This document shows, piece by piece, positions 22,389-61,643 of a stretch of DNA of 64,000 bases (position 1 is the stretch's first letter; the number at the start of each line of letters is the position of its first letter). This DNA comes from Mobula hypostoma (Eukaryota): assembly GCF_963921235.1 (NCBI RefSeq), contig NC_086108.1, positions 48,548,001 through 48,612,000 on the forward strand, given 5' to 3'. A program made the position numbers and the translations under genes. Below the pieces are notes generated by a model. It made no database searches. It was given only the letters and a program-made list of their open reading frames with translations, and was not told the DNA's origin.

Positions 22389-22390
22389 AT

Positions 22391-22404: not shown

Positions 22405-22428
22405 GCCCAAACGATATTTGGACCAGAG

Positions 22429-25017: not shown

Positions 25018-25235
25018 TTTTTTTTATATAATTTTTATTGAATTTTCAAAAAGAATACATGAAAAGATAAAATCTACCCACCCCCCCATATATGTAGTCT
25101 ACCTAAAAGAAAGAAGAGAAAAAAAAAGAGCCGCCTGGGTATTGGAAGGTTTCCACATGCTCCATGGGATTCAAAATAAATTTGGTATAATTATTCGTTA
25201 TTTTCCCCAAGTAACCAAATTCTTTGTCGGAGCAC

Positions 25236-29466: not shown

Positions 29467-29831
29467 TCAATCTATCTCCCTCTCGTGAGTTTGTTCTTGT
29501 ATCTGGTGAATATTCAGAGAATCTTGCACAAACTGCTCTGCTTTCTGGTAGTCATCAAAAAATCTTTTTTCTCCACCAGACAAAAAAATCTTCAAAGTTG
29601 CAGGATAACGCAGTATAAATTGATAATCATGCTCCCATAGGGTTTTTTCCACTGGATTAAACTTCTTCCTTTTCTTCAAAAGTTCGTAACTTATATCAGG
29701 GTAGAAAAAAACTCTTTTCTCTTTAATTATCAATGGCCCTTTTCTATCTTTGGCAGCTTGAACAGCCACCTGTAGAATCCTTTCCTTGTCTTGAAATCTT
29801 AAGAATTTTATTAAAATCGATCGTGGATATT
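29467..29831 (-). pseudogene. L1 ORF1 3' part (RRM end and C-terminal domain)
   Basis: YPRSILIKFLRFQDKERIL..VFFYPDISYELLKKRKKF..LRYPATLKI. Confidence 0.9.
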
Positions 29832-29932
29832 AACATAGAAACATAGAAACATAGAAAATAGGTGCAGGAGTAGGCCATTCGGCCCTTCGAGCCTGCACCG
29901 CCATTTATTATGATCATGGCTGATCATCCAAC

Positions 29933-32434
29933 TCAGAACCCAGCCTTCCCTCCATACCCCCTGACCCCTGTAGCCACAAGGGCCATATCTAACTTCCTTT
30001 TAAACATAGCTAATGAACTGGCCTCAACAGTTTGCTGTGGCAGAGAATTCCACAGATTCACCACTCTCTGTGTGAAGAAGTTTTTCCTAACCTCGGTCCT
30101 AAAAGGCTTCCCCTCTATCCTCAAACTGTGACCCCTCGTTCTAGACCTCCCCAACATCGGGAACAATCTTCCTGCATCTAGCCTGTCCAATCCCTTTAGG
30201 ATCTTATACGTTTCAATCAGATCCCCCCTCAATCTTCTAAATTCCAACGAGTACAAGCCCAGTTCATCCAGTCTTTCTTCATATGAAAGACCTGCCATCC
30301 CAGGAATCAATCTGGTGAACCTTCTTTGTACTCCCTCTATGGCAAAGATGTCTTTCCTCAGATTAGGGGACCAAAACTGCACACAATACTCCAGGTGTGG
30401 TCTCACCAAGGCCTTGTACAACTGCAGTAGTACCTCCCTGCTCCTGTACTCGAATCCTCTCGCTATAAATGCCAGCATACCGTTCGCCTTTTTCACCGCC
30501 TGCTGTACCTGCATGCCCACTTTCAATGACTGGTGTATAATGACACCCAGGTCTCGTTGCACCTCCCCTTTTCCTAATCGGCCACCATTCAGATAATAAT
30601 CTGTTTTCCTATTTTTGCCACCAAAGTGGATAACTTCACATTTATCCACATTAAATTGCATCTGCCATGAGTTTGCCCACTCACCCAACCTATCCAAGTC
30701 ACCCTGCATCCTCTTAGCATCCTCCTTAACCGGCCTATAATTCCCCGGTTTCTCTCTCCCTCCTTTTTTAAAAAGTGGGGTTACATTAGCCACCCTCCAA
30801 TCCTCAGGAACTAGTCCAGAATCTAACGAGTTTTGAAAAATTATCACTAATGCATCCACTATTTCTTGGGCCACTTCCTTAAGCACTCTGGGATGCAGAC
30901 CATCTGGCCCTGGGGATTTATCTGCCTTCAATCCCTTCAATTTACCTAACACCACTTCCCTACTAACATGTATTTCGCTCAGTTCCTCCATCTCACTGGA
31001 CCCTCTGTCCCTTACTATTTCTGGAAGATTACTTATGTCCTCCTTAGTGAAGACAGAACCAAAGTAATTATTCAATTGGTCTGCCATGTCCTTGCTCCCC
31101 ATAATCAATTCACCTGTTTCTGTTTGCAGGGGACCTACATTTGTCTTTATCAGTCTTTTCCTTTTTACATATCTATAAAAGCTTTTACAGTCCGTTTTTA
31201 TGTTCTCTGCCAGTTTTCTCTCATAATCTTTTTTCCCCTTCCTAATTAAGCCCTTTGTCCTCCTCTGCTGAACTCTGAATTTCTCCCAGTCCTCAGGTGA
31301 GCCACTTTCTCTGGCTAATTTGTATGCTACTTCTTTGGAATTGATACTATCCCTAATTTCTCTTGTCAGCCACGGGTGCACTACCTTCCTTGATTTATTC
31401 TTTTGCCAAACTGGGATGAACAATTGTTGTAGTTCATCCATGCAACCTTTAAATGCCTGCCATTGCATATCCACCGTCAATCCTTGAAGTGTCATTTGCC
31501 AGTCTATCTTAGCTAATTCATGTCTCATACCTTCAAAGTTACCCCTCTTTAAGTTCAGAACCTTTGTTTCTGAATTAACTACGTCACTCTCCATGTTAAT
31601 GAAGAATTCCACCATATTATGGTCACTCTTACCCAAGGGGCCTCTCACGACAAGATCGCTAATTAACCCTTCCTCATTGCTCAAAACCCAGTCCAGAATA
31701 GCCTGCTCTCTAGTCGGTTCCTCGACATGTTGGTTCAAAAAACCATCCCGCATACATTCCAAGAAATCCTCTTCCTCAGCACCTTTACCAATTTGGTTCA
31801 CCCAGTCTACATGTAGATTGAAGTCACCCATTATAACTGCTGTTCCTTTATTGCACACATTTCTAATTTCCTGTTTAATACCATCTCCGACCTCACTACT
31901 ACTGTTAGGTGGCCTGTACACAACTCCCAGCAGCGTCTTCTGCCCCTTAGTGTTACGCAGCTCTACCCATATCGATTCCACATCTTCCCGGCTTATGTCC
32001 TTCCTTTCTATTGCGTTAATCTCTTTTTTAACCAGCAACGCCACCCCACCTCCCCTTCCTTCGTGTCTATCCCTCCTGAATATTGAATATCCCTGAACGT
32101 TGAGCTCCCATCCCTGGTCACCCTGGAGCCATGTCTCTGTGATCCCAACTATATCATAATCATTAATAACAATCTGCACTTTCAATTCATCCACCTTATT
32201 ACGAATGCTCCTTGCATTGACACATAAAGCCTTCAGGCACTCTTTTACAACTCTCTTAGCCCTTTTTAATGCTTGCCCTGGATTTGTCGGCCTGCCACTT
32301 TTACTTTTCCCCTTTGTACTTTTTGCTTCTACGCTCACTTTACACCCCTCTGTCTCTCTGCACTGGTTCCCATCCCTCTGTTGTGAACTAACCTCCTCAC
32401 ACCTAGCCGCTTTAATTTGATTCCCACCCCCCAA
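29933..32434 (-). CDS. CR1 ORF2, copy 1: intact APE endonuclease, RT core deleted (833 aa open frame, no AUG start)
   Basis: GITETWL, MGDFN, KSDHNM present. The junction NYRPV|KEDAKRMQ lacks the FADD region. Confidence 0.85.
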   Translation of the reverse strand: MGGGNQIKAARCEEVSSQQRDGNQCRETEGCKVSVEAKSTKGKSKSGRPTNPGQALKRAKRVVKECLKALCVNARSIRNKVDELKVQIVINDYDIVGITETWLQGDQGWELNVQGYSIFRRDRHEGRGGGVALLVKKEINAIERKDISREDVESIWVELRNTKGQKTLLGVVYRPPNSSSEVGDGIKQEIRNVCNKGTAVIMGDFNLHVDWVNQIGKGAEEEDFLECMRDGFLNQHVEEPTREQAILDWVLSNEEGLISDLVVRGPLGKSDHNMVEFFINMESDVVNSETKVLNLKRGNFEGMRHELAKIDWQMTLQGLTVDMQWQAFKGCMDELQQLFIPVWQKNKSRKVVHPWLTREIRDSINSKEVAYKLARESGSPEDWEKFRVQQRRTKGLIRKGKKDYERKLAENIKTDCKSFYRYVKRKRLIKTNVGPLQTETGELIMGSKDMADQLNNYFGSVFTKEDISNLPEIVRDRGSSEMEELSEIHVSREVVLGKLKGLKADKSPGPDGLHPRVLKEVAQEIVDALVIIFQNSLDSGLVPEDWRVANVTPLFKKGGREKPGNYRPVKEDAKRMQGDLDRLGEWANSWQMQFNVDKCEVIHFGGKNRKTDYYLNGGRLGKGEVQRDLGVIIHQSLKVGMQVQQAVKKANGMLAFIARGFEYRSREVLLQLYKALVRPHLEYCVQFWSPNLRKDIFAIEGVQRRFTRLIPGMAGLSYEERLDELGLYSLEFRRLRGDLIETYKILKGLDRLDAGRLFPMLGRSRTRGHSLRIEGKPFRTEVRKNFFTQRVVNLWNSLPQQTVEASSLAMFKRKLDMALVATGVRGYGGKAGF

Positions 32435-32439
32435 CCATT

Positions 32440-33375
32440 CTAGTTTAAAGTCACCTCAGTAGCCCCCGCTAATCTCCCTGCCAGGATATTGGTCCCCCGA
32501 GGATTTAAGTGTAACCCGTCCTTTTTGTACAGGTCACACCTGCGCCAAAAGAGGTCCCAATGATCCAAAAACTTGAATCCCTGCCCCCTGCTCCAATCCC
32601 TCAGCCACGCATTTATCCTCCACCTCATCGCATTCCTACTCTCACTGTCGCGTGGCACAGGCAGTAATCCCGAGATTACTACCTTTGCGGTCCTTTTTCT
32701 CAACTCCCTTCCTAGCTCCCTATATTCTTCTTTCAGGACCTCATCCCTTTTCCTACCTATGTCATTGGTACCTATATGTACCAGGACCTCTGGCTCTTCA
32801 CCCTCCCACTTCAGGATATCTTGGACACGATCAGAAATATCCCGGACCCTGGCACCAGGGAGGCAAACTACCATCCGAGTCTCTGGACTGCGTCCACAGA
32901 ATCGCCTATCTGACCCCCTTACTATCGAGTCCCCTATCACAACTGCCCTCCTCTTCCTTGCCCTACCCTTCTGAGCTACAGGGCCAGACTCTGTGCCGGA
33001 GGCAGGGCCACTGTCGCTTCCCCCGGGTAAGCTGTCCCCCCCAACAGTACTCAAACAGGAGTACCTGTTGTTAAGGGGCACAGCCGCCGGGGTACTCCCC
33101 ATCACCTTCCTTTTCCCCTTCCCCCTCCTAACCGTGACCCACTTGTCTGCCTCCCGTGGCCCCGGCGTGACCACCTGCCTTCCACTCCTCTCTATCACCT
33201 CCTCACTCTCCCTGACCAGACGAAGGTCATCGAGCTGCAGCTCCAGTTCCGTAACGCGGTCCCTTAGGAGCTGCATCTCGATGCACTTGGCGCAGATGTA
33301 GACGTCCGGGAGGCTTGGAGACTCCAGGGCCTCCCACATCCGACACCGAGAACAGCAAACTGCCCTCACAGTCAT
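32440..33375 (-). CDS. CR1 ORF1, copy 1: Cys zinc-finger, coiled coil and SGNH esterase
   Basis: CCSRC..CAKC, LRDRVTELELQL, GDSIV, GTND, DGLH. Confidence 0.92.
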   Translation of the reverse strand: MTVRAVCCSRCRMWEALESPSLPDVYICAKCIEMQLLRDRVTELELQLDDLRLVRESEEVIERSGRQVVTPGPREADKWVTVRRGKGKRKVMGSTPAAVPLNNRYSCLSTVGGDSLPGGSDSGPASGTESGPVAQKGRARKRRAVVIGDSIVRGSDRRFCGRSPETRMVVCLPGARVRDISDRVQDILKWEGEEPEVLVHIGTNDIGRKRDEVLKEEYRELGRELRKRTAKVVISGLLPVPRDSESRNAMRWRINAWLRDWSRGQGFKFLDHWDLFWRRCDLYKKDGLHLNPRGTNILAGRLAGATEVTLN

Positions 33376-33780
33376 AATGCCCCTCTCCTCAAATAGCAAC
33401 AGAAAATGAATGTCAAACCTTCCTCGCCTCACCCGCTTCCGCCTAAGCCCGGTGAGCCGAAGCCCTTAAGTCTTCACTCTGCTCCCGGCTCACTCCGCCG
33501 CCCGCAAACTACGCTGCCCGCTCTATGAGGCTCTGTTCCTTTTAAATCTGCCGCGCTGCACTGCCCTACGTCACACGCCTGCGCAGTCCCGCCTCTCAGA
33601 AAGCCGTTGGAGAAAAAAAAATAACGAAAATTTCAAAAATCTCTTTTTCGGCACTCCCACTCAGACTCTCAGACTCCTTCTTCAAATCAAATCCGAAGCA
33701 GGATGTCTGCCCTTTTAAATCTGCCGCGCTGCACTGCCCGACGTCACACGCCTGCGCAGTCCCGCCTCTCAGAAAGCCGT

Positions 33781-34403: not shown

Positions 34404-34449
34404 TGCTCCCTGTTCTACCGAAGGAGATCCAGAGAGGACCCTACTATGT

Positions 34450-35587: not shown

Positions 35588-35604
35588 GGGGGGGGGGGTG
35601 GTTA

Positions 35605-35890
35605 TGTGGCGACCCACTTTCTGGCACACACAAACCGGCTCACAACAGCGCGCGCAGGCAGGGGGGCCGGCAGCAAAAAGGGCACCAGGCCATCTTCACC
35701 AGCAGGGGGGAAATCCCGCGCGCAGAAAGGGTCTGGGAATATACATTCCCCACAGTAGTCCCGCCCAGGGAGGGCGGGAACAGGAAGGCTTTAAAGCGGG
35801 CCGCGAAGTTTGAATAAATCTCTTTCATCGCAACTCTAACTCACCGACTCCGTGTGGTTATTCTAGCGCTGTGTGTAGCACATCGCTACA
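35605..35890 (+). repeat. Gypsy 3' LTR (286 bp), preceded by a poly-G PPT (35588-35601)
   Basis: Direct repeat of 22104-22388, followed by the AGCT TSD. Confidence 0.97.
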
Positions 35891-41296: not shown

Positions 41297-41549
41297 TAGC
41301 CTAGAATGGAGAGTCTGCAATGTGGCCAAGAAAATGACTGAGGACATTGGCCCCAGGGTGGATACTCACGTTGTCTCCATGTCTGTCTGTTGAATTAGCA
41401 CATTTTGCGGAGGCCACTTTGGTGATAATACCTCCAGTCATTCAAGATCTCAGTAGTTGTCAGTAGTCCAGATCTCAGAAGCTTGGCCATAAGCTCTGTG
41501 CATATCTGAGGTCCTTAACTAAAATAAACTTTTCTTCAATCAACTAAAC

Positions 41550-44104
41550 TGTCATGGGGGGGGGGCGCTGGGAGCGGACCCAAATGCAAGACACAGACAC
41601 TGAAGTACTAGGAAGAGGACTAGGTGTGTCAAGAAAGCAAGGGAAGTGGGGAAGAAATGATACTGGACAAGACACAGGCCCTGGACAAGGCTAGGATACA
41701 GGGCCTGGGCTAGGACTAGACTAGGAAAGCAGGACCTGGACGAGGAACTAGGAACTTGGAACCCGGACAAGGACACCGAGCCAGAGACTGGACAGGGGCC
41801 CGGAACCTGGTGGGCTCAGACCCCGGATCTAGGTGAGGACAAGACGTGGCTACAGGATGAGGAGTGGCAACAGGACTAGACGTGAGACTTCTGGACAGGA
41901 CGAGGGAACCCCAGCACCGGGCTGGGTGAGGTACTCCTAGGCTGCGTGACACACACGGACAGGACAAGAACACGAAGCCTTGACTTGGTCGAGGGAGACA
42001 GGAACGCAGAGCCTCGGCCTTGAGGGGGACAGGAACGCAGAGCCTCAGTTTGGAGAGGACAGAAACACAGAGGCTTGGTCGAGGGGGACAGGAACTTGGA
42101 ACACAGAGCCGGGACCCCTCCTTGAAAGCAGGATGTAGGGCCAGGACTCATACACAGAATATTGAGAGACAGATCTCCACTCAAGGTAGTGGCCAATGGC
42201 CGGACCTGCCCAGCGGAGGCAAGGGCACAAAGAGACAGTTCACAACACAAGGTAGCGGCAAACAGCTGGACCTACCTAGCAAAGGCATTGACACAGAGAC
42301 AGTTCCCAACTCAAGGTAGCAGCAAATGGCCGGACCTACCTAGCAAAGGCGAGGACACAAAGAGACAATTCCAAACAATGAAAGACAGTTCCTTATCTAG
42401 ACACAGCAAGGCCCCGATCTTGCCCTGGCGGTTGAACCTGACAGCATTGCAGGCGAGGCTTCAGAAGGAAAGGGAAGGGGAGGGAACAGTCCAGCAACTG
42501 AAGCTGAACCCAGGAGTTGTTTATGTAGCCAGCCCAAAATTAGAATCACGTGCCTCAGTTGAGGTACACAACAGGACAAGGGAAAACCAGAAAACCTGGA
42601 ACAAGGATCGACAGACCGGACCGTGAACCAGAATGCAGACTTCACAGATCGGACCATGACAGTATCCGCCCCTCTTCTATGGGAGCCTCCTGGTGACAGA
42701 ACAGGCTCTCCAGGACAAAGGACAACACGGGTGGGTGGGGGGGGGCATTCAACAGGAGGGAACCTAGGATTGCAAGAGTAAAATGACAGTGTCGGTGTCA
42801 CTAGGTCCATATTTGACTGGACTGCTCTGTCATGGGGGGGGGCGCTGGGAGCGGACCCAAATACAAGACACGGACACTGAAGTACTAGGAACAGGACTAA
42901 GTGTGTCAAGAAAGCAAGGGAAGTGGGGAAGAAATGATGCTGGACAAGACACAGGCCCTGGACAAGACCAGGATACAGGGCCTAGGCTAGGACAAGATTA
43001 GGAAAGCGAGACCTGGACGAGGAACAAGGAACTTGGAACCTGGACAAGGACTCCGAGCCGGAGATTGGACAGGGACCCGGAACCGAGTCTTGACTCTGGC
43101 TCGGACCCCGTATCTAGGTTAGGACAAGACGTAGCTACAGGACGAGGAGTGGCAACAGGACTGGACATGAGACTCCTGAACAGGATTAGGGAACCCCAGC
43201 ACTGGGCTAGGTGAAGTACTCCTGGGCTGGGTGAGGCACATGGACAGGACAAGAACACGAAGCTTTGACTTGGTCGAGGGAGACAGGAACGCAGAGCCTT
43301 GGTCGAGGGGGACAGGAATGCAGAGCCTTGGTCATGAGAGAACAGGAACATGGAACACAGAGCCAGGACCCGTCGTTGGGAACAGGACTTGGGGCCAGGG
43401 CTCAACACAGAGTCATCACCCTTCCTAGGGAGCAGGATGTAGGGCTGGGACTCATACACAGAACACTGAGAGATAGATCTCCACTCAAGGTAGCGGCAAA
43501 TGGCCGGACCTACCCAGCAGAGGCGAGGGCACGAAGAGACGGTTCCCAACACAAGGTAGCGGCAAACGGCCAGACCTACCTAGCGAAGGCGTGGACACAG
43601 AGACAGTTCCCAACTCAAGGTAGCGGCAAACGGCTGGACCTACCTAGCGAAGGTGTGGATACAGAGACAGTTCCCAACTCAAGGCAGCGGCAAACAGCCC
43701 AATCTACCTCGCGAAGGCGAGGACACAAAGAGCCAGTTCCATACAATGGAAGACAGTTTCTTATCTAGACACAGCAAGGCCCTGATCTCACCCTGGCAGT
43801 TGAACCTGACGGCATTACAGGCAAGGACACAGGCGAAGGTAGCAGGCGAGGTTTCAGGCGAAGGTAGCAGGTGAGGCTTCAGGTGAAGTTAGCAGGCGAG
43901 GCTTCAGAAGGAAGGGGAAGGGAAAGGAACAGTCCAGCAACTGAAGCTGAACCCAGGAACTGTTTATGTAGCCAGCCCAAAATGAGAATCGTGTGGCTCA
44001 ATTAAGGCACACAACAGGACAAGGGAAAACCTGAAAACCTGGAATAAGGATCAATGGACCAGACTGTGAACTGGAATGCGAACTTCATGGACCGGACCAT
44101 GACA
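41550..44104 (-). mobile_element. Non-autonomous sushi/Tf1-type LTR retrotransposon: LTRs 42828-44104 (5') and 41550-42661 (3'), 166-bp internal region
   Basis: Both LTRs run TGTCATG...CATGACA; 5-bp TSD TAAAC (41545-41549, 44105-44109). Minus-strand PPT AGAAGAGGGGCGGATAC; gag-start vestige ATGGACCTAG. Confidence 0.93.
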
Positions 44105-47340: not shown

Positions 47341-48168
47341 AGCAGTCTAGGCATGAGAACATAGCCATAGATCTTCCTGCAACATGTAATGTACCTCAAA
47401 GCTCAACTTGAAATTCTCAACCTGAACCTGAAAAGTTTGCTCATAGATGTATTTGGGTAGAATGTGTCATAGGGTCTTCTCCATTGCTTATGCCTTTGCC
47501 TCCACTTACTGATCCACTTGTCAGTAATGAATTATTGTCAGTGATATCATAGCTGAAATAAATATTGCATGAGTATTGCAGTAGCTAAATTTGTATGTAA
47601 AAATACACTGACATTTTGCGCATTCTTTGGTGGCTGACATATTATATTAGAGCTGTCAGTCAGATCTCCCCATTCAACAGAATGTCACTTCTGCTGGCAG
47701 AATCAGGATAACATGTTCCAAGTTCTGTCGAGGCAATGCAGTTAGAAAGGAGCAGAAGGCTGCGATTCTCTGGTAAGGGTGAGAGTGGGTAGTTAGCGGT
47801 TAAGAATGTTATATGATGTATGTCTGATGCCAAGAAAATGTCAATGCTGCCAATATGGAGGTACCCAGTCCAGTTTCATGTCCGGCACAATGTGGCCCAG
47901 ACATGATTCCAGCACAATGAATAATAGTTAAGATCTAAACTGAACTACACACTATCCAAAGAACAGGCAACGTGTAATCCAATTTTCAGATTACATTGTA
48001 CTGTGATCCAGAAATGCACTACAAGGAACAGCTGGAGATCAGGGAGAGAGGCAAGGGGAGAGTGTATTGTCCTGCCCCCATTAGCAGCACTTCCTGCTGA
48101 ATAAAGTGGTAACTACTGCTGTGGAGATTCTGAATAGAGGGGCCCAGAACAATGGTATTTTAGGGTAA

Positions 48169-49452
48169 TGCAATAGGTGGAAATACATGCATAATTCGCA
48201 ATCATTGAGTTGGAGTTAAGAGGCTGGTCTGACGTGATGACATGAAGATTTTACTGCGCCTTATGTTCTATGTTTGGTTGACAATAAGAGTGAATTGTTA
48301 CAATTTCCCTTAAACGTAAAACACCTCCATCGTTTTACTTGCAAAAACTTACATTGGTGACCCCGATGCTCTAGGACGATTCCAGTGTTATTCAGTGTGT
48401 CGGCCAGTGCAGTCACTTTGAGACCGCTGGAGTTTTGGGAGCAAAATGCCGTCACTTGGCTTGTACAAAGCAAGGCCCAATTCATGCTGCAAGAAATCTC
48501 CACGGATAACACTAGATATTATTACATAGTAGTGTCACTGCGTGGTTCCATGGCCATAAGAGTGGTGAGTCTGATTGAACACCAGCCAGAAATCGAAAAA
48601 TATCGCATGCTGAAAACTCACCTCTCACAGTCTTTTGGACTCTCAGAGTCTGAACACACCACAAAGTTGCTCTGAGGGTTTTCCCTGATGGATGAGTGGT
48701 GGCATGATCATCTCCTATGAGTCCTGCTGGGGCTCAGAACGGCCCCAAAAGAGGACCAGCTGTAGGCCAGGGCTGAGTGAGTATATGGACAGCCATTAGG
48801 AGTGCCTTGTGATTTTATTCCTGACATCACAACGGCCTGGTTGTCCTCTCAACAGCATTCCATCCTCCTCAGTAAACTCATCCTTCTGCGTGTATTTCTA
48901 CCTCCCATCATGGCACTAGGCACTGTTGGGTTCATATTGACCTACACTCTGCCTTGTTCATTTTCATCCGCCATGATGCACATCCCCTTAGGCCCCCTTA
49001 TGATGGCCTGTTCCACATTTTGGAACAGAGAGAAAAGACTTTTATCATAGATAGGAGGGGTCATCCTGAATGGATTTCAGTAGATTGCCTTAAACCGGCC
49101 CACAAAAAGTTGGAAGACTTCACTACCATTCCCCTAGCATCGTAACATGACCTGAGCATGAGGACAAGCCAGAGGCACCTGCTGTTACTCCATCCATGGA
49201 ACACAGGACATAGGACCCAAGCCAGGCAGCTTATCTGAGCTCCAGACAGGGTAATGTAACGGCTGGAAACATATGCATAATTCACAACCACCAACATTGA
49301 GTTGGATTCACGTTAACAGGCCAGTCTGATGTGATGATGTAATGGTGTGGTTTTTTCTGCGCTTTACGTTCTGTGTTTGACAATAAAAGTGAGTAGTTAT
49401 GGTTGCTCTTGACGTTATGACAGCTCTCCCATTTTATTTGCGAAAACCTACA
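48169..49452 (+). mobile_element. Old, internally deleted Gypsy element (LTRs about 48169-48353 and 49255-49452; tRNA-Trp PBS; gag start fused to integrase end)
   Basis: Diverged direct repeats ending in TACA; TGGTGACCCCGA at 48355; EFWEQNAVTWLVQSKAQF; LLGLRTAPKED; PPYDGLF..VDCLKPAH. Confidence 0.85.
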
Positions 49453-49941
49453 GAAGAAGGAGTCTGAGAGTCTGAGTGGGAGTGCCGAGAAAGAGATTTT
49501 TGAAATTTTCGTTATTTTTTTTCTCCAACGGCTTTCTGAGAGGCGGGACTGCGCAGGCGTGTGACGTCGGGCAGTGCAGCACGGCAGATTTAAAAGGGCA
49601 GACATCCTGCTTCGGATTTGATTCGAAGAAGGAGTCTGAGAGTCTGAGTGGGAGTGCCGAGAAAGAGATTTTTGAAATTTTCGTTATTTTTTTTCTCCAA
49701 CGGCTTTCTGAGAGGCGGGACTGCGCAGGCGTGTGACATCGGGCAGTGCAGCGCGGCAGATTTAAAAGGGCAGACATCCTGCTTCGGATTTGATTCGAAG
49801 AAGGAGTCTGAGAGTCTGAGTGGGAGTGCCGAGAAAGAGATTTTTGAAATTTTCGTTATTTTTTTTCTCCAACGGCTTTCTGAGAGGCGGGACTGCGCAG
49901 GCGTGTGACGTCGGGCAGTGCAGCGCGGCAGATTTAAAAGG
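49453..49941 (+). repeat. 172-bp tandem monomer array (about 2.8 units) at the CR1 5' end
   Basis: Units start at 49453, 49625 and 49797 and are almost identical. Confidence 0.97.
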
Positions 49942-50103
49942 AACAGAGCCTCAGAGAGCGGGCAGCGTAGTTTGCGGGCAGCGGAGTGAGCCAGGAGCAG
50001 GGTGAAGACTTAAGGGCTTCGGCTCACCGGGCTTAGGCGGAAGCGGGCGAGGTGAGGAAGGTTTGACATTCATTTTCTGTTGCTATTTGAGGAGAGGGGC
50101 ATT

Positions 50104-51039
50104 ATGACTGTGAGGGCAGTTTGCTGTTCTCGGTGTCGGATGTGGGAGGCCCTGGAGTCTCCAAGCCTCCCGGACGTCTACATCTGCGCCAAGTGCATCG
50201 AGATGCAGCTCCTAAGGGACCGCGTTACGGAACTGGAGCTGCAGCTCGATGACCTTCGTCTGGTCAGGGAGAGCGAGGAGGTGATAGAGAGGAGTGGAAG
50301 GCAGGTGGTCACGCCGGGGCCACGGGAGGCAGACAAGTGGGTCACGGTTAGGAGGGGGAAGGGGAAAAGGCAGGTGATGGGGAGTACCCCGGCGGCTGTG
50401 CCCCTTAACAACAGGTACTCCTGTTTGAGTACTGTTGGGGGGGACAGCTTACCCGGGGGAAGCGACAGTGGCCCTGCCTCCGGCACAGAGTCTGGCCCTG
50501 TAGCTCAGAAGGGTAGGGCAAGGAAGAGGAGGGCAGTTGTGATAGGGGACTCGATAGTAAGGGGGTCAGATAGGCGATTCTGTGGACGCAGTCCAGAGAC
50601 TCGGATGGTAGTTTGCCTCCCTGGTGCCAGGGTCCGGGATATTTCTGATCGTGTCCAAGATATCCTGAAGTGGGAGGGTGAAGAGCCAGAGGTCCTGGTA
50701 CATATAGGTACCAATAACATAGGTAGGAAAAGGGATGAGGTCCTGAAAGAAGAATATAGGGAGCTAGGAAGGGAGTTGAGAAAAAGGACCGCAAAGGTAG
50801 TAATCTCGGGATTACTGCCTGTGCCACGCGACAGTGAGAGTAGGAATGTGATGAGGTGGAGGATAAATGCGTGGCTGAGGGATTGGAGCAGGGGGCAGGG
50901 ATTCAAGTTTTTGGATCATTGGGACCTCTTTTGGCGCAGGTGTGACCTGTACAAAAAGGACGGGTTACACTTAAATCCTAGGGGGACCAATATCCTGGCA
51001 GGGAGATTAGCGGGGGCTACTGAGGTGACTTTAAACTAG
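50104..51039 (+). CDS. CR1 ORF1: zinc-finger, coiled coil and SGNH esterase (311 aa from the ATG)
   Basis: CCSRC..CAKC, VVIGDSIVRG, HIGTNN, KDGLHLN. Confidence 0.93.
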   Translation: MTVRAVCCSRCRMWEALESPSLPDVYICAKCIEMQLLRDRVTELELQLDDLRLVRESEEVIERSGRQVVTPGPREADKWVTVRRGKGKRQVMGSTPAAVPLNNRYSCLSTVGGDSLPGGSDSGPASGTESGPVAQKGRARKRRAVVIGDSIVRGSDRRFCGRSPETRMVVCLPGARVRDISDRVQDILKWEGEEPEVLVHIGTNNIGRKRDEVLKEEYRELGRELRKRTAKVVISGLLPVPRDSESRNVMRWRINAWLRDWSRGQGFKFLDHWDLFWRRCDLYKKDGLHLNPRGTNILAGRLAGATEVTLN

Positions 51040-51044
51040 AATGG

Positions 51045-54044
51045 TTGGGGGGTGGGAATCAAATTAAAGAGGCTAGGTGTGAGGAGGTTAGTTCACAACA
51101 GAGGGATGGGAACCAGTGCAGAGAGACAGAGGGGTGTAAAGTGAGCGTAGAAGCAAAAAGTACAAAGGGGAAAAGTAAAAGTGGCAGGCCGACAAATCCA
51201 GGGCAAGCATTAAAAAGGGCTAAGAGAGTTGTAAAAGAGTGCCTGAAGGCTTTATGTGTCAATGCAAGGAGCATTCGTAATAAGGTGGATGAATTGAAAG
51301 TGCAGATTGTTATTAATGATTATGATATAGTTGGGATCACAGAGACATGGCTCCAGGGTGACCAGGGATGGGAGCTCAACGTTCAGGGATATTCAATATT
51401 CAGGAGGGATAGACATGAAGGAAGGGGAGGTGGGGTGGCGTTGCTGGTTAAAAAAGAGATTAACGCAATAGAAAGGAAGGACATAAGCCGGGAAGATGTG
51501 GAATCGATATGGGTAGAGCTGCGTAACACTAAGGGGCAGAAGACGCTGGTGGGAGTTGTGTACAGGCCACCTAACAGTAGTAGTGAGGTCGGAGATGGTA
51601 TTAAACAGGAAATTAGAAATGTGTGCAATAAAGGAACAGCAGTTATAATGGGTGACTTCAATCTACATGTAGACTGGGTGAACCAAATTGGTAAAGGTGC
51701 TGAGGAAGAGGATTTCTTGGAATGTATGCGGGATGGTTTTTTGAACCAACATGTCGAGGAACCGACTAGAGAGCAGGCTATTCTGGACTGGGTTTTGAGC
51801 AATGAGGAAGGGTTAATTAGCGATCTTGTCGTGAGAGGCCCCTTGGGTAAGAGTGACCATAATATGGTGGAATTCTTCATTAACATGGAGAGTGACGTAG
51901 TTAATTCAGAAACAAAGGTTCTGAACTTAAAGAGGGGTAACTTTGAAGGTATGAGTCGTGAATTAGCTAAGATAGACTGGCAAATGACACTTAAAGGATT
52001 GACGGTGGATATGCAATGGCAGGCATTTAAAGGTTGCATGGATGAACTACAACAATTGTTCATCCCAGTTTGGCAAAAGAATAAATCAAGGAAGGTAGGG
52101 CACCCGTGGCTGACAAGAGAAATTAGGGATAGTATCAATTCCAAAGAAGTAGCATACAAATTAGCCAGAGAAAGTGGCTCACCTGAGGACTGGGAGAAAT
52201 TCAGAGTTCAGCAGAGGAGGACAAAGGGCTTAATTAGGAAGGGGAAAAAAGATTATGAGAGAAAACTGGCAGAGAACATAAAAACGGACTGTAAAAGCTT
52301 TTATAGATATGTAAAAAGGAAAAGACTGATAAAGACAAATGTAGGTCCCCTGCAAACAGAAACAGGTGAATTGATTATGGGGAGCAAGGACATGGCAGAC
52401 CAATTGAATAATTACTTTGGTTCTGTCTTCACTAAGGAGGACATAAATAATCTTCCAGAAATAGTAAGGGACAGAGGGTCCAGTGAGATGGAGGAACTGA
52501 GCGAAATACATGTTAGTAGGGAAGTGGTGTTAGGTAAATTGAAGGGATTGAAGGCAGATAAATCCCCAGGGCCAGATGGTCTGCATCCCAGAGTGCTTAA
52601 GGAAGTAGCCCAAGAAATAGTGGATGCATTAGTGATAATTTTTCAAAACTCGTTAGATTCTGGACTAGTTCCTGAGGATTGGAGGGTGGCTAATGTAACC
52701 CCACTTTTTAAAAAAGGAGGGAGAGAGAAACCGGGGAATTATAGGCCGGTTAGCCTAACGTCGGTGGTGGGGAAACTGCTGGAGTCAGTTATCAAGGATG
52801 TGATAACAGCACATTTGGAAAGCGGTGAAATGATCGGACAAAGTCAGCATGGATTTGTGAAAGGAAAATCATGTCTGACGAATCTCATAGAATTTTTTGA
52901 GGATGTAACTAGTAGAGTGGATAGGGGAGAACCAGTGGATGTGGTATATTTGGATTTTCAAAAGGCTTTTGACAAGGTCCCACACAGGAGATTAGTGTGC
53001 AAACTTAAAGCGCACGGTATTGGGGGTAAGGTATTGGTGTGGGTGGAGAATTGGTTAGCAGACAGGAAGCAAAGAGTGGGAATAAACGGGACCTTTTCAG
53101 AATGGCAGGCGGTGACTAGTGGGGTACCGCAAGGCTCAGTGCTGGGACCCCAGTTGTTTACAATATATATTAATGACTTGGATGAGGGAATTAAATGCAG
53201 CATCTCCAAGTTTGCGGATGACACGAAGCTGGGTGGCAGTGTTAGCAGTGAGGAGGATGCTAAGAGGATGCAGGGTGACTTGGATAGGTTGGGTGAGTGG
53301 GCAAACTCATGGCAGATGCAATTTAATGTGGATAAATGTGAAGTTATCCACTTTGGTGGCAAAAATAGGAAAACAGATTATTATCTGAATGGTGGCCGAT
53401 TAGGAAAAGGGGAGGTGCAACGAGACCTGGGTGTCATTATACACCAGTCATTGAAAGTGGGCATGCAGGTACAGCAGGCGGTGAAAAAGGCGAACGGTAT
53501 GCTGGCATTTATAGCGAGAGGATTCGAGTACAGGAGCAGGGAGGTACTACTGCAGTTGTACAAGGCCTTGGTGGGACCACACCTGGAGTATTGTGTGCAG
53601 TTTTGGTCCCCTAATCTGAGGAAAGACATCTTTGCCATAGAGGGAGTACAAAGAAGGTTCACCAGATTGATTCCTGGGATGGAAGGTCTTTCATATGAAG
53701 AAAGACTGGATGAACTGGGCTTGTACTCGTTGGAATTTAGAAGATTGAGGGGGGATCTGATTGAAACATATAAGATCCTGAAGGGATTGGACAGGCTAGA
53801 TGCGGGAAGATTGTTCCCGATGTTGGGGAGGTCCAGAACGAGGGGTCACAGTTTGAGGATAGAGGGGAAGCCTTGTAGGACCGAGATTAGGAAAAACTTC
53901 TTCACACAGAGAGTGGTGAATCTGTGGAATTCTCTGCCACAGCAAACTGTTGAGGCCAGTTCATTAGCTATGTTTAAAAGGAAGTTAGATATGGCCCTTG
54001 TGGCTACAGGGGTCAGGGGGTATGGAGGGAAGGCTGGGTTCTGA
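51045..54044 (+). CDS. CR1 ORF2: APE endonuclease and reverse transcriptase (frame open from 51024; no AUG before the endonuclease)
   Basis: VNARS, ITETWL, GDFN, SDH; NYRPVSL, YLDFQKAFD, GVPQGSVLGP, KFADDTK, RDLGV. Confidence 0.95.
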   Translation: MGGGNQIKEARCEEVSSQQRDGNQCRETEGCKVSVEAKSTKGKSKSGRPTNPGQALKRAKRVVKECLKALCVNARSIRNKVDELKVQIVINDYDIVGITETWLQGDQGWELNVQGYSIFRRDRHEGRGGGVALLVKKEINAIERKDISREDVESIWVELRNTKGQKTLVGVVYRPPNSSSEVGDGIKQEIRNVCNKGTAVIMGDFNLHVDWVNQIGKGAEEEDFLECMRDGFLNQHVEEPTREQAILDWVLSNEEGLISDLVVRGPLGKSDHNMVEFFINMESDVVNSETKVLNLKRGNFEGMSRELAKIDWQMTLKGLTVDMQWQAFKGCMDELQQLFIPVWQKNKSRKVGHPWLTREIRDSINSKEVAYKLARESGSPEDWEKFRVQQRRTKGLIRKGKKDYERKLAENIKTDCKSFYRYVKRKRLIKTNVGPLQTETGELIMGSKDMADQLNNYFGSVFTKEDINNLPEIVRDRGSSEMEELSEIHVSREVVLGKLKGLKADKSPGPDGLHPRVLKEVAQEIVDALVIIFQNSLDSGLVPEDWRVANVTPLFKKGGREKPGNYRPVSLTSVVGKLLESVIKDVITAHLESGEMIGQSQHGFVKGKSCLTNLIEFFEDVTSRVDRGEPVDVVYLDFQKAFDKVPHRRLVCKLKAHGIGGKVLVWVENWLADRKQRVGINGTFSEWQAVTSGVPQGSVLGPQLFTIYINDLDEGIKCSISKFADDTKLGGSVSSEEDAKRMQGDLDRLGEWANSWQMQFNVDKCEVIHFGGKNRKTDYYLNGGRLGKGEVQRDLGVIIHQSLKVGMQVQQAVKKANGMLAFIARGFEYRSREVLLQLYKALVGPHLEYCVQFWSPNLRKDIFAIEGVQRRFTRLIPGMEGLSYEERLDELGLYSLEFRRLRGDLIETYKILKGLDRLDAGRLFPMLGRSRTRGHSLRIEGKPCRTEIRKNFFTQRVVNLWNSLPQQTVEASSLAMFKRKLDMALVATGVRGYGGKAGF

Positions 54045-55059
54045 GTTGGATGATCAGCCATGATCATAATAAATGGCGGTGCAGGCTCGAAGGGCCGAAT
54101 GGCCTACTCCTGCACCTATTTTCTATGTTTCTATGTTTCTATGTATATTTTCCAGTGCAAACTAAATTGTGGGTGTAAGTAGTACTTCTCACCCATTTTC
54201 TTCAGGAATCCCCTGGCCTTCCATCATATCTGAGTGCAGATCAGTGGGACTAGGTAAGAGAAAGCATTCGGTATGGTCTACAAGGGCCGAGATGGCCTGT
54301 TTCTGTGCTGTAATTGTTATATGGTTATATCTATTGGAACTTCTAAAAGTTAATCACAGTGTCATCTACATTGAAGGGACTAACAATCACAAATTCTCTG
54401 AAGTTGTACTTCCTTTCTCTTAGCAAAGCCATTGAATCTAAAAAATTATAATGCTTTCCCAGTTTGGGGAAGAGCTGCTACTAACACCAAAGGCACTGCA
54501 TTTTTTAAGCAGGAGTATGGATCAATAGGAATGTTGTTATGAATAAATAGGAATTAAACAGAAAATGTTGTTACGCCTAACTATGAGAAGGTTATTTTAT
54601 ATCGTGCTTACTTAAGTTGGAGTTGGACTGTGTTGCAGCAATTAAACGTTTAGACTAGAGGTTCCCAACTTGGGTTTCTCAGACCCCTTGCTTATTGGTA
54701 TTGATCCATGGTATAAAAAAGGGTTGGGAACCCCTGTTTTAGGCTCTCTCTCTCTCTGTCTGGCACTCTTTATGGGAACTCTGCAATATGAATGGGCTTT
54801 TATGGTAAATTATATGGAGGTTTTAATAGTAGGTTTTCACATTTCCCCATCAAGTCACTCTGTCCACTTGTATGTAAATTCACCTGTTCAAAATAATTGA
54901 ATAAATTATGTCTCTGCTCCATTGTTAAGGACATAAGAAATGGGAACTGCATCCACATAATCTTTCAAGCATATTCTATCATTCAAAAGATCTTGGCTGG
55001 TTCTTTGACCTCAACTCCACTTTCCCATCAATCCCCACATTAATTTTAATCAAATTGAC

Positions 55060-59089: not shown

Positions 59090-59225
59090 TGTGTAAATAT
59101 ACTGTTGTTGCATTAATGACATTTTTATAATTAAATTTGTTCCTTTGGTAGAACTTCTTGAAGATGGCTGTTGGTGGAAAATGGAAGTGTTGAAACTTGG
59201 AAGCAGGATTTTCTTTACATACATC

Positions 59226-61643
59226 ATGGTGAAGATGACTCTGTTGGTGGCAATTGTTGCATTAACTTATCTTTCCGCACCTGCTACTTGTGTAACATCA
59301 AAGAAGGTAGAAACATTTTTAGTGAATTGTTCGGGGATTAGATATCCACTTTCTCCTTGTACCCTGGGCTCAGACACAGTGAAGTTGGATCTCTCCCACA
59401 ACAACATCAAAACGATTCAACAGCAGAACTTCCAAAATCTTACCAAGCTGAAAGTTTTGTTTCTTCAGTTCAATTGGATCGCAACAATAGAACCTGGATC
59501 ATTTGCAAAAAATTCAGAACTACAGTATCTTGATCTTTCAAATAATCTTCTGCATGATATTTCAGTCTTGCCATTTACCAATCTCCAATCAATAAGACAC
59601 TTGGATATTACCAACAATAGGTTTGAAACAGCTCACTTTGGAGCAGAGATTAGCAGGTTGCAGAAGCTACACACTTTACGTTTTGGAAATTCTAGGCTAT
59701 ATTCTCTGAATTCGAGTTCCTTATTTGCCCTTCATGCAATCCAAATTAAGGAGATCTATTTGATCACTGGAGAGCTGCGGACATATGAACCTGGAACACT
59801 CAGTATGATACAAAGCATGGAAAAACTTTCTTTAGATTTACAGTTTGGGCAGCAACCACAATTATTGATTAATATTTTCAAGGATATTCCAATAACGACA
59901 ACCACATTAGAAATCCTAAATACCGATCTGGCCAAATATGGTAATAATGTAGATCTGTTCTTCCCTTTAAGCACATCAAATGTTTCCACATTAATTGTAA
60001 AGAATATTTCCATCACTGATTCTTTGGCTATTTATTTCTTTAATGGTGTCCTAAGCTCAAAAATAAGAGACTTATATTTGCACACTATTACAATGAATGG
60101 CATTGGCAATTGGAACATACAGGCTGTACCAGTAGAGAAGGTTAATTTGCGTAGAATTTCTATAACTGATGTTTCTAATCCAAATTTCTATAAATTTTAC
60201 TCACTTTCTTATTTAATTGATCTATTTTCACAACTTCGGGAGCTAACAATAACTGAGGGGAGTTTGTTCTATGTTCCATGTGCAGTAACAGAAATTTTGG
60301 CTTTTTTAACATATTTGGACGTATCTTCCAACTTACTTCAAGTATCCACCTTAATTCCTGAAACATGTTCAACTCCTTTACCCAGTCTTAAAACCCTCAT
60401 TCTAAACAGGAACAAATTTACAAATCTACAACAACTCAGCAGGATGACAACCAGGTTAAGGAGCTTGTCCAATATAAGTGTTACTCATAATGATGTATTC
60501 CTGCCAAATGGAGTGACTTGCGCATGGCTTCAAACAGTGAAACGTATAGATTTATCACACAATAGATTGGAAGAAAATGTGTTTGAATGTTTGCCAGAAT
60601 CACTGGAATCTTTAGACTTAAGTTATAACTCCATCGCCACTGTGCCAAACCTCAAGACACTGAAAGATCTCCAGGAAATATTTTTGACAGGAAATGTCAT
60701 TGCATCTTTACCTGAAATCACAGGTCATTCACTGAAAACTGTGCATATTGACTACAATAAAATAACCAATATAAATGTAGGCTTATTGCAGTCCTGGAAT
60801 CTAACAGAGGTGAAATTGAGCAATAACCCTTTTGAATGTTTCTGTTCAATTCAGTCTTTCTCCAATTATGTTCAACAAACAAATACCAAGGTTCTTAACT
60901 GGCCTGATCAGTATGAATGTTATGTTCCACTGAAATTCAGAAATGGAGTTATCAAATATCTGAAATTTTCTCCCATTGAATGCAACATCCCCTTATTTAT
61001 TGGGCTCCTCATGACATGTGTAGCACTTATAGTGGCTGTATGTGTTATTTTGTGTATGAAATATAAAGTCACCTGGTATATACGTACACTTTGGCTTTGG
61101 CTCAAGGCTAAAAGAAATCTAGATGTCAGCCAGATTCAAAACAATTATGAGTTCAATGCTTTTATTTCATACAGTGAACATGATGCCTTATGGGTGAAGA
61201 ACAAATTGCTGGTACAGCTAGAGAACAATGATCCACCATATCGTATCTGCATCCACGAAAGAGATTTCAAACCTGGAAAGCCAATCATTACTAATATCAT
61301 TGACTGCATATCAAAAAGCTACAAAACCATCTTTATCCTGTCAAAACACTTTGTGCAAAGTGAATGGTGCCACTATGAATTTTTCTTTGCCCACCAACAG
61401 GTATTTGATTATAGGAAGGATAGTCTTATCCTGCTCCTGTTGGAACCAATCCCAAAGAATTCTATTCCAGATCGATTCTGTAAACTGAGGAAGCTGATGA
61501 ATCGCAACACCTACCTGGAGTGGCCCCAGAATGAGTTTCAACAGGGGTTCTTCTGGAGAAGATTGAAAGCTGTCCTAAACTTGGATTTCCATTCAAATTG
61601 TTCTAGAAGAGAGCATAATAAGGCGGGCCAATTAGATCCATAA
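59226..61643 (+). CDS. Toll-like receptor, TLR1 family (TLR1/6/10/14/18/27 group; TLR27-like candidate), CDS in one exon; alternative in-frame ATGs at 59181 and 59235
   Basis: Signal peptide MVKMTLLVAIVALTYLSAPATC; LRRs (LDLSHNNI, LDLSNNLL, LDLSYNSI); LRRCT NPFECFC; TM segment; TIR NAFISYS, ICIHERDFKPGK, FVQSEWCHYE, TYLEWP..FW. Acceptor tttggtag| at 59151. Confidence 0.95.
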   Translation: MVKMTLLVAIVALTYLSAPATCVTSKKVETFLVNCSGIRYPLSPCTLGSDTVKLDLSHNNIKTIQQQNFQNLTKLKVLFLQFNWIATIEPGSFAKNSELQYLDLSNNLLHDISVLPFTNLQSIRHLDITNNRFETAHFGAEISRLQKLHTLRFGNSRLYSLNSSSLFALHAIQIKEIYLITGELRTYEPGTLSMIQSMEKLSLDLQFGQQPQLLINIFKDIPITTTTLEILNTDLAKYGNNVDLFFPLSTSNVSTLIVKNISITDSLAIYFFNGVLSSKIRDLYLHTITMNGIGNWNIQAVPVEKVNLRRISITDVSNPNFYKFYSLSYLIDLFSQLRELTITEGSLFYVPCAVTEILAFLTYLDVSSNLLQVSTLIPETCSTPLPSLKTLILNRNKFTNLQQLSRMTTRLRSLSNISVTHNDVFLPNGVTCAWLQTVKRIDLSHNRLEENVFECLPESLESLDLSYNSIATVPNLKTLKDLQEIFLTGNVIASLPEITGHSLKTVHIDYNKITNINVGLLQSWNLTEVKLSNNPFECFCSIQSFSNYVQQTNTKVLNWPDQYECYVPLKFRNGVIKYLKFSPIECNIPLFIGLLMTCVALIVAVCVILCMKYKVTWYIRTLWLWLKAKRNLDVSQIQNNYEFNAFISYSEHDALWVKNKLLVQLENNDPPYRICIHERDFKPGKPIITNIIDCISKSYKTIFILSKHFVQSEWCHYEFFFAHQQVFDYRKDSLILLLLEPIPKNSIPDRFCKLRKLMNRNTYLEWPQNEFQQGFFWRRLKAVLNLDFHSNCSRREHNKAGQLDP

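What the first reader, a model, noticed from the sequence alone, without database searches (positions are those of the whole stretch)
49453..49941. Mouse-L1-like tandem promoter monomers on a CR1 LINE
Seen: each 172-bp unit carries, in order, GAGGCGGGA (GC/E2F-like), TGCGCAGGCG (NRF1-like), TGACGT (CRE-like; TGACAT in unit 2) and TTTAAAAG (TATA-like). The element's 5' end corresponds to 36 nt downstream of the TATA-like box position in the unit. Copy 1 has the same array (33538-33780), truncated at another phase. Established: monomer arrays are known from rodent L1. Inference: an upstream-type Pol II promoter preserved by tandem redundancy, where each unit fires into the next and one unit is lost per cycle unless the array is regenerated.
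Basis: partly seen in the sequence, partly recalled or inferred. Interest (0 to 1): 0.7.

Follow-up and report, generated by a model that had tools for sequence, protein, structure and literature searches.

The report
Ray CR1 retrotransposon with promoter monomers
A young jumping gene of a devil-ray-like fish carries head-to-tail copies of a 172-base promoter-like unit at its front end, most likely so that each new copy still inherits a working promoter, a design known from mouse LINE-1 and here seen in a different and much older family of elements.

Summary
49453-49941 is a 2.84 x 172-bp, 99% identical, CpG-rich array heading an intact CR1 LINE (esterase ORF1, APE-RT ORF2) of a Mobula-like ray. 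A 99% identical copy has 1.41 units. The unit junction occurs in contigs of two species.

In published stingray CR1 consensus sequences (read by eye), the NRF1(+CRE)+TTTAAAAR block recurs. One family has its own tandem array, a true TATA in that slot, and starts 29-31 nt after it. Six more start at the homologous phase.

New here: the slot is also a textbook CDE/CHR. A galliform CR1 with a 215-bp unit shares GCGG-nAGA-TTTAAA, and an eagle consensus has TTTGAA there, which TBP should not bind. A DREAM/MYB-MuvB role is therefore open.

5' subunit arrays in the CR1 group are in print (2026), but only for ORF1-less elements and without a promoter reading. This scan earlier noted phased monomers on another CR1/L2-type LINE. 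No genome-wide 5'-end histogram or promoter assay was possible. New variant of a known kind; interest 0.5.

The parts
49453..49941 (+). 5' monomer array, 2.84 x 172 bp (units 49453-49624, 49625-49796 and 3'-terminal partial unit 49797-49941, which ends just after TTTAAAAGG)
   Evidence: junction seen in contigs of runs X1, X6, X8
49884..49892 (+). GC/E2F-like box GAGGCGGGA (also 49540, 49712); label recalled
   Evidence: kept in HypSab_CR1-5, -6a, -12
49894..49903 (+). NRF1-like site TGCGCAGGCG (also 49550, 49722)
   Evidence: GCAGGCG is an NRF1 search string in PMC3874167; 11 occurrences in the first 400 nt of CR1-group consensus sequences, 10 in stingray/sawfish CR1 and 1 in an alligator CR1
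49906..49913 (+). CRE-like site TGACGT(CG); 49913 G>A gives the full TGACGTCA in other copies
   Evidence: table 3 (X13, about half of depth); full CRE in HypSab_CR1-15, -9 and PriPec_CR1-5, -9
49924..49940 (+). CGCGG - 4 nt - TTTAAAAG: TATA variant and, equally, CDE/CHR match (also 49752-49768; the CDE half is CpG-decayed in unit 1)
   Evidence: TATA reading; CHR reading
49789..49797 (+). inferred start zone, 28-36 nt after the TTTAAAAG of unit 2; holds a TTCGAA hexamer; phase of copy 2's 5' end
   Evidence: two loose ends at 49793 in X8; consensus starts (inference, not a mapped start site)
49843..49848 (+). second CHR-like hexamer TTTGAA (unit phase 47)
49942..50103 (+). unique 5' UTR ('tether') between array and ORF1
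   Evidence: no RNA structure beyond shuffles (z -0.01)
50104..51039 (+). ORF1, 311 aa, N-terminal Cys cluster plus SGNH/GDSL esterase
   Evidence: PF13472, E 6e-15; 98% to a Mobula hypostoma protein
51045..54044 (+). ORF2, open frame of 999 codons, APE endonuclease plus reverse transcriptase
   Evidence: PF03372, PF00078
54045..54144 (+). 3' UTR with hairpin and 8-bp terminal repeat (TTTCTATG)n, no poly(A)
   Evidence: hairpin predicted; whole-region z only -1.3
29824..33780 (-). second copy of the family, 99.2% identical, with a 498-bp internal deletion in RT; array 33538-33780 (1.41 units, start phase 76); inserted in an L1/Tx1-type element
49255..49452 (+). flank: old LTR-like sequence that ends exactly at the array's first base (not part of the LINE)
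   Evidence: 69% to 48162-48353

Best explanation
Each 172-bp unit is a complete upstream-type RNA polymerase II promoter. It has a CpG-rich activator block (GC/E2F-like, NRF1, CRE) and, about 40 nt further on, TTTAAAAG acting as a weak TATA box that places the start 28-34 nt downstream, at the border of the next unit. An RNA started from unit n lacks that unit's promoter but carries units n+1 onward, so the daughter copy inherits a promoter. The last unit ends just after its box and can only start a promoter-less RNA in the tether. Lineages therefore persist only if units are re-duplicated, probably by template slippage during reverse transcription or by unequal recombination. SHOWN: array, motifs, intact young element, junction in two species, conservation of the block across rays. 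SUPPORTED BY COMPARISON: TATA role and phased 5' ends. INFERRED: promoter activity, germline expression, loss of one unit per cycle, the regeneration route. A second role of the box as a CHR is not excluded.
For: (1) HypSab_CR1-12 (stingray) has an independent 168-bp tandem unit with the same GGCGGGA+NRF1 block. It has TATATAAA/TATAAAAA 38 nt from the NRF1 start (39 nt here), its last unit also ends right after the box, and its consensus begins 29-31 nt after the TATA (counted by eye). Its linker differs in sequence, yet both linkers give about 30 nt. (2) Of 19 HypSab CR1 consensus sequences, 8 carry the block. Besides -12, six (-1, -5, -6a, -15, -17, -18) begin at the word that lies 28-34 nt after the box here; -9 is unclear. 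(3) The slot reads TTTAAAAR, a full 8-mer, in 8 of 11 stingray and sawfish consensus sequences with the block. TTTAAAAG gives 20-29% of consensus activity (PMC13566119) and is the VEGFA TATA at -28 (PMC5564728). (4) Copy 2 starts at +36; two X8 contigs with apparently unrelated flanks (agreement 0.67) join at about +33. (5) In run X13 the block 49882-49950 is laid while 30 contigs diverge upstream of it. Among the 40 of 92 variant rows shown, 5 of 172 monomer positions vary against 16 of 162 tether positions (Fisher p 0.012). (6) Precedent: mouse L1 monomers with phased truncation and matching CAGE peaks.
Against: No genome-wide histogram: no genome is held, and hid 638 loose ends. No monomer position is among the 6 best-supported loose ends listed for X1 or X6 (15 or more contigs), and table 6 lists no pile-up of ends. 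Copy 1 starts at phase 76 and another X8 end falls at phase 115, both off-phase. The two X8 ends were picked by the tool for having most support, so their odds are not valid p-values. Consensus starts depend on the authors' curation and the families are related, so they are not independent. The three sawfish consensus sequences with the block do not clearly start at the homologous word: two start elsewhere, one is unclear. The eagle homologue of the avian block has TTTGAA, which breaks the TBP rule. Two stingray consensus sequences read GTTAAA in the slot.
Confidence: 0.65

Rival explanations
1. The box works chiefly as a CDE/CHR element. LIN54/MuvB binds TTTAAA, DREAM silences the element in resting somatic cells, and B-MYB- or A-MYB-MuvB switches it on in G2/M or meiotic prophase, with NRF1 and CRE as activators, as in the PLK4 class of CCAAT-less promoters. 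The array still serves to preserve the promoter.
For: The unit holds the exact PLK4-paper strings (NRF1 GCAGGCG, CRE TGACGT, CHR TTTAAA) and no CCAAT. It holds all three commonest CHR hexamers (3 or more in 1.3% of shuffles), with CGCGG at the 4-nt spacing (0.26% of shuffles). I noted this idea before seeing L002, a galliform-type CR1 (ORF1 33-35%, ORF2 41% identical). Its 215-bp unit has GGCGG-GAGA-TTTAAA (0.195% of shuffles, about 2% given any CHR hexamer). That pattern occurs nowhere else in the 64-kb window or in 141,560 nt of 39 loci. Eagle AquChr_CR1-1a has the same block with CGCGG-GAGA-TTTGAA, and sawfish PriPec_CR1-4 has GGGAGA-TTTGAA in each tandem unit. AGATTTGAA occurs 4 times in the supplement, all in CR1 5' ends, against 0 and 0 for two same-composition control words. 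A-MYB-MuvB acts through CHR sites (abstract).
Against: HypSab_CR1-12, the stingray family with the highest share of intact ORF2 (208 of 839), has TATA and no CDE in that slot. A strict SGCGG at 4 nt stands in only 2 of 11 batoid relatives. GC-rich DNA just upstream is also what a TATA promoter has. The TTCGAA/TTTGAA difference between copies 1 and 2 is plain CpG decay. A Gypsy LTR in the same window also has TTTAAA and TTTGAA. No binding or expression data.
Confidence: 0.2
2. Internal (downstream) promoter, as in human L1: the element starts at phase about 170 and the block 90-140 nt downstream drives initiation upstream of itself. Extra units only add dosage, and the 30-nt spacing is incidental.
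For: Most stingray consensus sequences show a single unit. Relatives -5, -6a and -12 carry a YY1-like GCCATTTT (label recalled) 35-50 nt inside the 5' end, and YY1 positions L1 starts.
Against: This family has no CCAT/ATGG core in the unit. Two unrelated linkers both put the box about 30 nt before the next unit's start, and the slot can be a consensus TATA.
Confidence: 0.1
3. A neutral minisatellite-like duplication with no promoter role, or an assembly artefact.
For: Single motifs are individually common (2.9-7.1% of shuffles); no functional data.
Against: Junction in contigs of two species; two independent copies in the window; block conserved across stingray and sawfish families whose spacers have diverged.
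Confidence: 0.05

Closest known systems
Mouse and rat L1 5' UTR monomers plus tether (L1Md A, Tf, Gf)
   Same: Array of ~200-bp CpG-rich units before a unique tether and ORF1; variable unit number (mouse averages 1.5-3.7; here 2.84 and 1.41); phased 5' truncation; promoter preserved by redundancy.
   Different: Different LINE clade and host (no sequence comparison with mouse monomers was made); no YY1 core in this family's unit; a TATA-position box rather than YY1/AP-1 appears to set the start; promoter activity untested here.
Canonical vertebrate CR1 (esterase ORF1, APE-RT ORF2, 8-bp 3' repeat), chondrichthyan branch; nearest consensus seen HypSab_CR1-6a/-5
   Same: Domain content, length about 4.7 kb, 8-bp terminal repeat, shared 5' block and tether; ORF1 81% to a Hypanus sabinus protein.
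   Different: Published descriptions of chicken CR1 5' UTRs give E boxes and, for turtle and pufferfish, a 32-bp direct repeat, not 170-215-bp promoter units.
5' repeating subunits of CR1-group elements (PMC13343379, Fig. 4 legend)
   Same: 1-5 subunits of 100-500 bp near the 5' UTR.
   Different: Described for ORF1(-) elements only and with no functional reading (0 hits for promoter, monomer or tandem in the main text); this element is ORF1(+).
CDE/CHR promoters of the PLK4 type (NRF1 + CRE + CDE/CHR, no CCAAT)
   Same: All four motif strings and the 4-nt CDE-CHR spacing.
   Different: Those are single-copy, usually TATA-less host promoters with tested DREAM binding; here the CHR overlaps a TATA variant and a close relative has a true TATA instead.

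Membership tests
Canonical CR1 LINE | ORF2 with APE endonuclease and reverse transcriptase | tested here: met
   PF03372 and PF00078 above cut-off
Canonical CR1 LINE | Esterase-type ORF1 | tested here: met
   PF13472 E 6e-15; homologues in sharks, rays, coelacanth, turtles and birds
Canonical CR1 LINE | 3' end of 8-bp repeats (ATTCTRTG in chicken), no poly(A) | tested here: met
   (TTTCTATG)n at 54116-54144, one mismatch to the chicken unit
Canonical CR1 LINE | Placement in the CR1 clade by an RT tree | not tested
   no tree built; placement rests on domains and on similarity to curated CR1 consensus 5' ends
Mouse-L1-type monomer promoter | Tandem ~200-bp CpG-rich units before a unique tether and ORF1 | tested here: met
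Mouse-L1-type monomer promoter | Unit number varies between copies | tested here: met
   2.84 and 1.41 units in 2 of 2 copies
Mouse-L1-type monomer promoter | 5' ends clustered at one phase of the unit | tested here: inconclusive
   3 of 5 ends seen fall at phase 170-1, but selection biased; 7 of 8 stingray consensus starts agree; no histogram
Mouse-L1-type monomer promoter | YY1 site in the unit (Tf, Gf) | tested here: not met
   no CCAT or ATGG in the unit; present in stingray relatives
Mouse-L1-type monomer promoter | Units drive a reporter; CAGE peak in the unit | not testable with these tools
   only contigs were offered, no raw reads
TATA-type core promoter | TATAWAWR consensus | tested here: not met
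   TTTAAAAG is a TBP-compatible variant
TATA-type core promoter | Start about 30 nt after the box | tested here: inconclusive
   5' ends at +29 to +36 by proxy; no mapped start
CDE/CHR (DREAM/MMB) promoter | CHR hexamer with a GC-rich CDE 4 nt upstream | tested here: met
   CGCGG-CAGA-TTTAAA
CDE/CHR (DREAM/MMB) promoter | CHR conserved among relatives | tested here: inconclusive
   TTTAAA in 8 of 11 batoid relatives, TATA in 1, GTTAAA in 2; TTTAAA and TTTGAA in two bird elements
CDE/CHR (DREAM/MMB) promoter | DREAM/MuvB binding and G2/M-peaked expression | not testable with these tools
   needs pull-down and synchronised-cell reporter

The most novel reading that the evidence does not exclude
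Monomer-type 5' promoters are an old, recurrent feature of ORF1-bearing CR1 LINEs (rays, sawfish, sturgeon, dogfish, galliform birds), not a rodent L1 oddity. Their core slot is a CDE/CHR, in rays overlaid on a TATA variant, that ties LINE transcription to MuvB: silent under DREAM and p53-p21 in resting cells, switched on by B-MYB or A-MYB in dividing or meiotic germ cells. A retrotransposon would then time its own expression to nuclear-envelope breakdown or meiotic prophase by borrowing the host's cell-cycle switch.
Probability: 0.25. Interest if true: 0.75.

Novelty: new variant of a known kind. Interest (0 to 1): 0.5.

Why it matters
How mouse L1 keeps and regrows its monomer array is still described as unclear (abstract of PMC6454616). 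CR1 is the dominant repeat of sharks and rays (CR1-group elements cover 22-34% of their genomes), and its promoter is almost unstudied. A young, intact CR1 family with near-identical units and a sharply placed core box gives a second, independent system. In it, unit loss per cycle and regeneration can be counted from 5' ends alone. If the CHR reading also holds, it would link LINE expression to the DREAM/MYB-MuvB cell-cycle and meiotic programme. My searches found no paper saying so; they cover open-access full text only.

Tried and rejected
One search used 4 of the 23 runs listed, all contigs. Its tables were cut (52 variant rows, 638 loose ends and 17,210 pieces hidden); depth was not used as copy number or expression, and the RNA label of X8 is a guess. 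No 'goes back 172' joint was seen in X13, so an array in organism C is not shown. The monomer pattern and the ORF1 profile found nothing in viral contigs. Prokaryote genomes gave 7 weak matches (23-33%) that were not followed. Of 39 metagenome loci, only L002 showed a 5' tandem unit; most lack a 5' end. L020 and L030 also hold repeats but are weak matches and were set aside. Whole-unit homology between the ray and L002 units was rejected as unproven: local score 35, reached by 0.4% of 5,000 shuffles and by 2 of 994 control tiles. Only the core GCGG-n-AGATTTAAA-n-GGGC is clearly shared. An RNA-structure role was rejected: unit z 0.05, tether z -0.01. My first idea, that the box is a CHR and not a TATA, was weakened by HypSab_CR1-12 and partly revived by the eagle consensus. 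The TTCGAA/TTTGAA exchange between the two copies is not counted as constraint (CpG decay). The chicken CR1 paper's supplement does not show the L002 unit, but its alignments are pictures that gave no text. Other supplement words gave nothing useful. Sequence and relatives look-ups in earlier findings were empty.

Full report
1. THE OBSERVATION. The array is real and as described. TRF gives 49453-49941, period 172, 2.8 copies, 99% matches. The three units differ at two positions only, both CpG to CpA, the mark of methylated DNA (established knowledge). All four motifs stand at the stated places and in the stated order. The array is a CpG island in miniature (o/e 1.18; window 0.40). Its first base is 36 nt after the first T of TTTAAAAG in unit register. 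Copy 1 (29824-33780, minus strand) is 99.2% identical, lacks 498 bp of RT, and has 1.41 units starting at phase 76. One caution: copy 2 begins exactly where an old LTR-like sequence ends and no target-site duplication is visible, so its true start could be a few bases further in.

2. THE ELEMENT. After the array come a 162-bp unique tether, ORF1 (311 aa, SGNH esterase), ORF2 (999 open codons, APE and RT) and an 8-bp terminal repeat without poly(A). These are the features of canonical vertebrate CR1; no tree was built. ORF1 is 98% identical to a Mobula hypostoma protein, so the host is a Mobula-like ray. No whole genome was held.

3. OTHER COPIES. The family's 5' part is held by runs of five coded organisms, all as contigs. 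I laid 4 of the 23 runs on one unit plus tether and ORF1 start. The unit-to-unit joint appears in X1 (organism A), X6 (organism B) and X8 (organism A, RNA by guess), and not in X13 (organism C). In X13 the block 49882-49950 is laid while 30 contigs diverge just upstream of it, so the motif block outlasts the spacer. Among the 40 of 92 variant rows shown, 5 of 172 monomer positions vary, against 16 of 162 in the tether (p 0.012) and 18 of 266 in ORF1 (p 0.083). None of the five breaks a motif, and one completes the CRE palindrome. For 5' ends the tool showed little. Two X8 contigs with apparently unrelated flanks join at phase about 170 and one at phase 115. No monomer position is among the best-supported loose ends of X1 or X6, and no pile-up of ends was listed. 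With 638 loose ends hidden, this neither gives nor excludes a peak.

4. RELATIVES IN PRINT. The supplement of PMC13343379 lists consensus sequences, of which the tool shows the first 400 letters; I read them by eye. All 19 stingray (HypSab) CR1 rows were seen, and 8 carry the NRF1 block. HypSab_CR1-12 has its own 168-bp tandem unit with the same GGCGGGA and NRF1 words and a different linker. It has a consensus TATA (TATATAAA, then TATAAAAA) 38 nt from the NRF1 start, against 39 nt here. Its last unit ends right after the box, as here, and its consensus begins 29-31 nt after the TATA. Six others (-1, -5, -6a, -15, -17, -18) begin at the word that lies 28-34 nt after the box in our array; -9 is unclear. 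Three sawfish rows (of 11 PriPec CR1 rows seen) carry the block: two start elsewhere and one is unclear. Over these 11 relatives the slot reads TTTAAAAR in 8, TATA in 1 and GTTAAA in 2. TTTAAAAG is a TBP-compatible variant with 20-29% activity (PMC13566119 citing a structural study that I did not see) and serves at VEGFA. Its limits: consensus ends depend on curation, and the families are related.

5. THE SECOND READING OF THE BOX. CGCGG-CAGA-TTTAAA is also a CDE/CHR: TTTAAA is one of the three commonest CHRs, and the CDE lies 4 nt upstream. The unit holds all three common hexamers and the NRF1 and CRE strings of the PLK4 promoter class, without CCAAT. The CDE-4-CHR pattern arises in 0.26% of shuffles (post hoc). 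After I had noted this idea, a metagenome contig, L002, gave an out-of-sample case. It is a distant CR1 whose ORF1 cluster holds a turkey protein. It begins with a 215-bp unit, seen as an exact 55-bp repeat at spacing 215, which I take for a collapsed array in a short-read assembly (one contig). It carries GGCGG-GAGA-TTTAAA (0.195% of shuffles; about 2% given any CHR hexamer) after other activator words (TCTCGCGAGA, E box, X-box-like; labels recalled). The eagle consensus has the same block with CGCGG-GAGA-TTTGAA, a canonical CHR that breaks the TBP rule. Against this reading: HypSab_CR1-12 thrives with a TATA and no CDE in that slot, a strict CDE stands in only 2 of 11 batoid relatives, and whole-unit homology between ray and bird is unproven. 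So the slot toggles between TTTAAA, TATAAA and TTTGAA, and TTTAAA is the form that satisfies both readings.

6. MECHANISM. Most likely (0.65), each unit is an upstream-type promoter that starts RNA about 30 nt after its box, at the border of the next unit. Daughters inherit one unit fewer, random 5' truncation (copy 1) is buffered, and the near-identity of units implies recent re-duplication. Rivals: the box acts chiefly as CDE/CHR (0.2); an internal promoter with dosage units (0.1); no function (0.05). Promoter activity, tissue and the regeneration route are inferred, not shown.

7. WHAT IS KNOWN. It works like mouse L1 monomers. It is not a member of that family: it belongs to a different clade and has no YY1 core. 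5' subunit arrays of 100-500 bp are in print for CR1-group elements, but for ORF1(-) ones and without function. The same paper's consensus set shows 5' tandem units in HypSab_CR1-12, PriPec_CR1-4, SquAca_CR1-15b and AciRut_CR1-1. AciRut_CR1-1 is ORF1-bearing by its match to L001; ORF1 was not seen for the other three. Turtle and pufferfish CR1 have a 32-bp direct repeat. Searches found no promoter-monomer description for CR1, and searches found none for CHR in LINE promoters. The library holds open-access text only; Repbase and Dfam notes, older CR1 papers, that paper's supplementary figures and its Zenodo files were not seen and may already mention such units.

8. PAPERS, AS SEEN. Passages only: PMC5381506, PMC6454616, PMC3874167, PMC4176359, PMC5716687, PMC9022269, PMC13566119, PMC5564728, PMC7778262, bioRxiv 10.1101/788562 (nothing relevant). 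Abstract: PMC11229319. Passages, section 8 and two supplement searches: PMC2734521. Abstract, passages, sections 13 and 15 and seven supplement searches: PMC13343379. Not seen: Loeb 1986 and the TBP structural study.

9. VERDICT. A real feature and a new variant of a known kind: mouse-L1-like promoter monomers on an intact ORF1(+) CR1, with a promoter block conserved across rays and a core box that is both a TATA variant and a CDE/CHR. Interest 0.5; 0.75 if the MuvB link (probability about 0.25) holds.

Noticed in passing
window 22104-35890: Triple nesting: a Gypsy-type LTR element (LTRs 95.5% identical, 4-bp target duplication) holds an L1/Tx1-type LINE (about 25041-34420, minus strand), which holds CR1 copy 1 inside its ORF1.
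   Followed up: partly
window 22104-22389 and 35605-35890: These LTRs also carry GGCGGGA, GCGCGCA, TTTAAA and TTTGAA words close together, so the same motif vocabulary is used by an unrelated element in this genome.
   Followed up: no
window 34330-34365: Two perfect NRF1-type palindromes (TGCGCATGCGCA) at the 5' end of the L1/Tx1-type element.
   Followed up: no
window 41543-44104: Two head-to-tail copies (85% identical) of a 1.3-kb LTR-like sequence with internal 64-bp and 29-31-bp repeats.
   Followed up: no
window 48162-49452: Old, short LTR-type element (LTRs 69% identical, primer-site-like word after the first LTR); CR1 copy 2 starts exactly at the end of its second LTR.
   Followed up: partly
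window 59145-61643 and 8945-13969: An intronless Toll-like receptor gene (LRR plus TIR) and exons with calcium-binding EGF matches, fibulin-like by recall.
   Followed up: no
L002:1-270: Galliform-type CR1 with a 215-bp 5' unit; its last partial unit stops just before the TTTAAA box, unlike the ray element, and the tether has its own AT-rich word.
   Followed up: partly
proteins P0021, P0026, P0061, P0062: CR1 ORF1 sequence is filed under a bacterial species name (probable host contamination) and inside ray gene models named RPS24 and TMEM204.
   Followed up: no
window 49825-49850 (unit phase 30-52): Stingray relatives have a YY1-like GCCATTTT here, which this family has lost; the slot next to it reads TTTGAA here, TTCAAA in HypSab_CR1-12 and TTTGAT in -5/-6a, all listed CHR forms.
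   Followed up: partly
window 6212-8573: An old, broken CR1 relative (ORF1 about 54% identical) whose match begins inside ORF1; no array block was found elsewhere in the window.
   Followed up: partly
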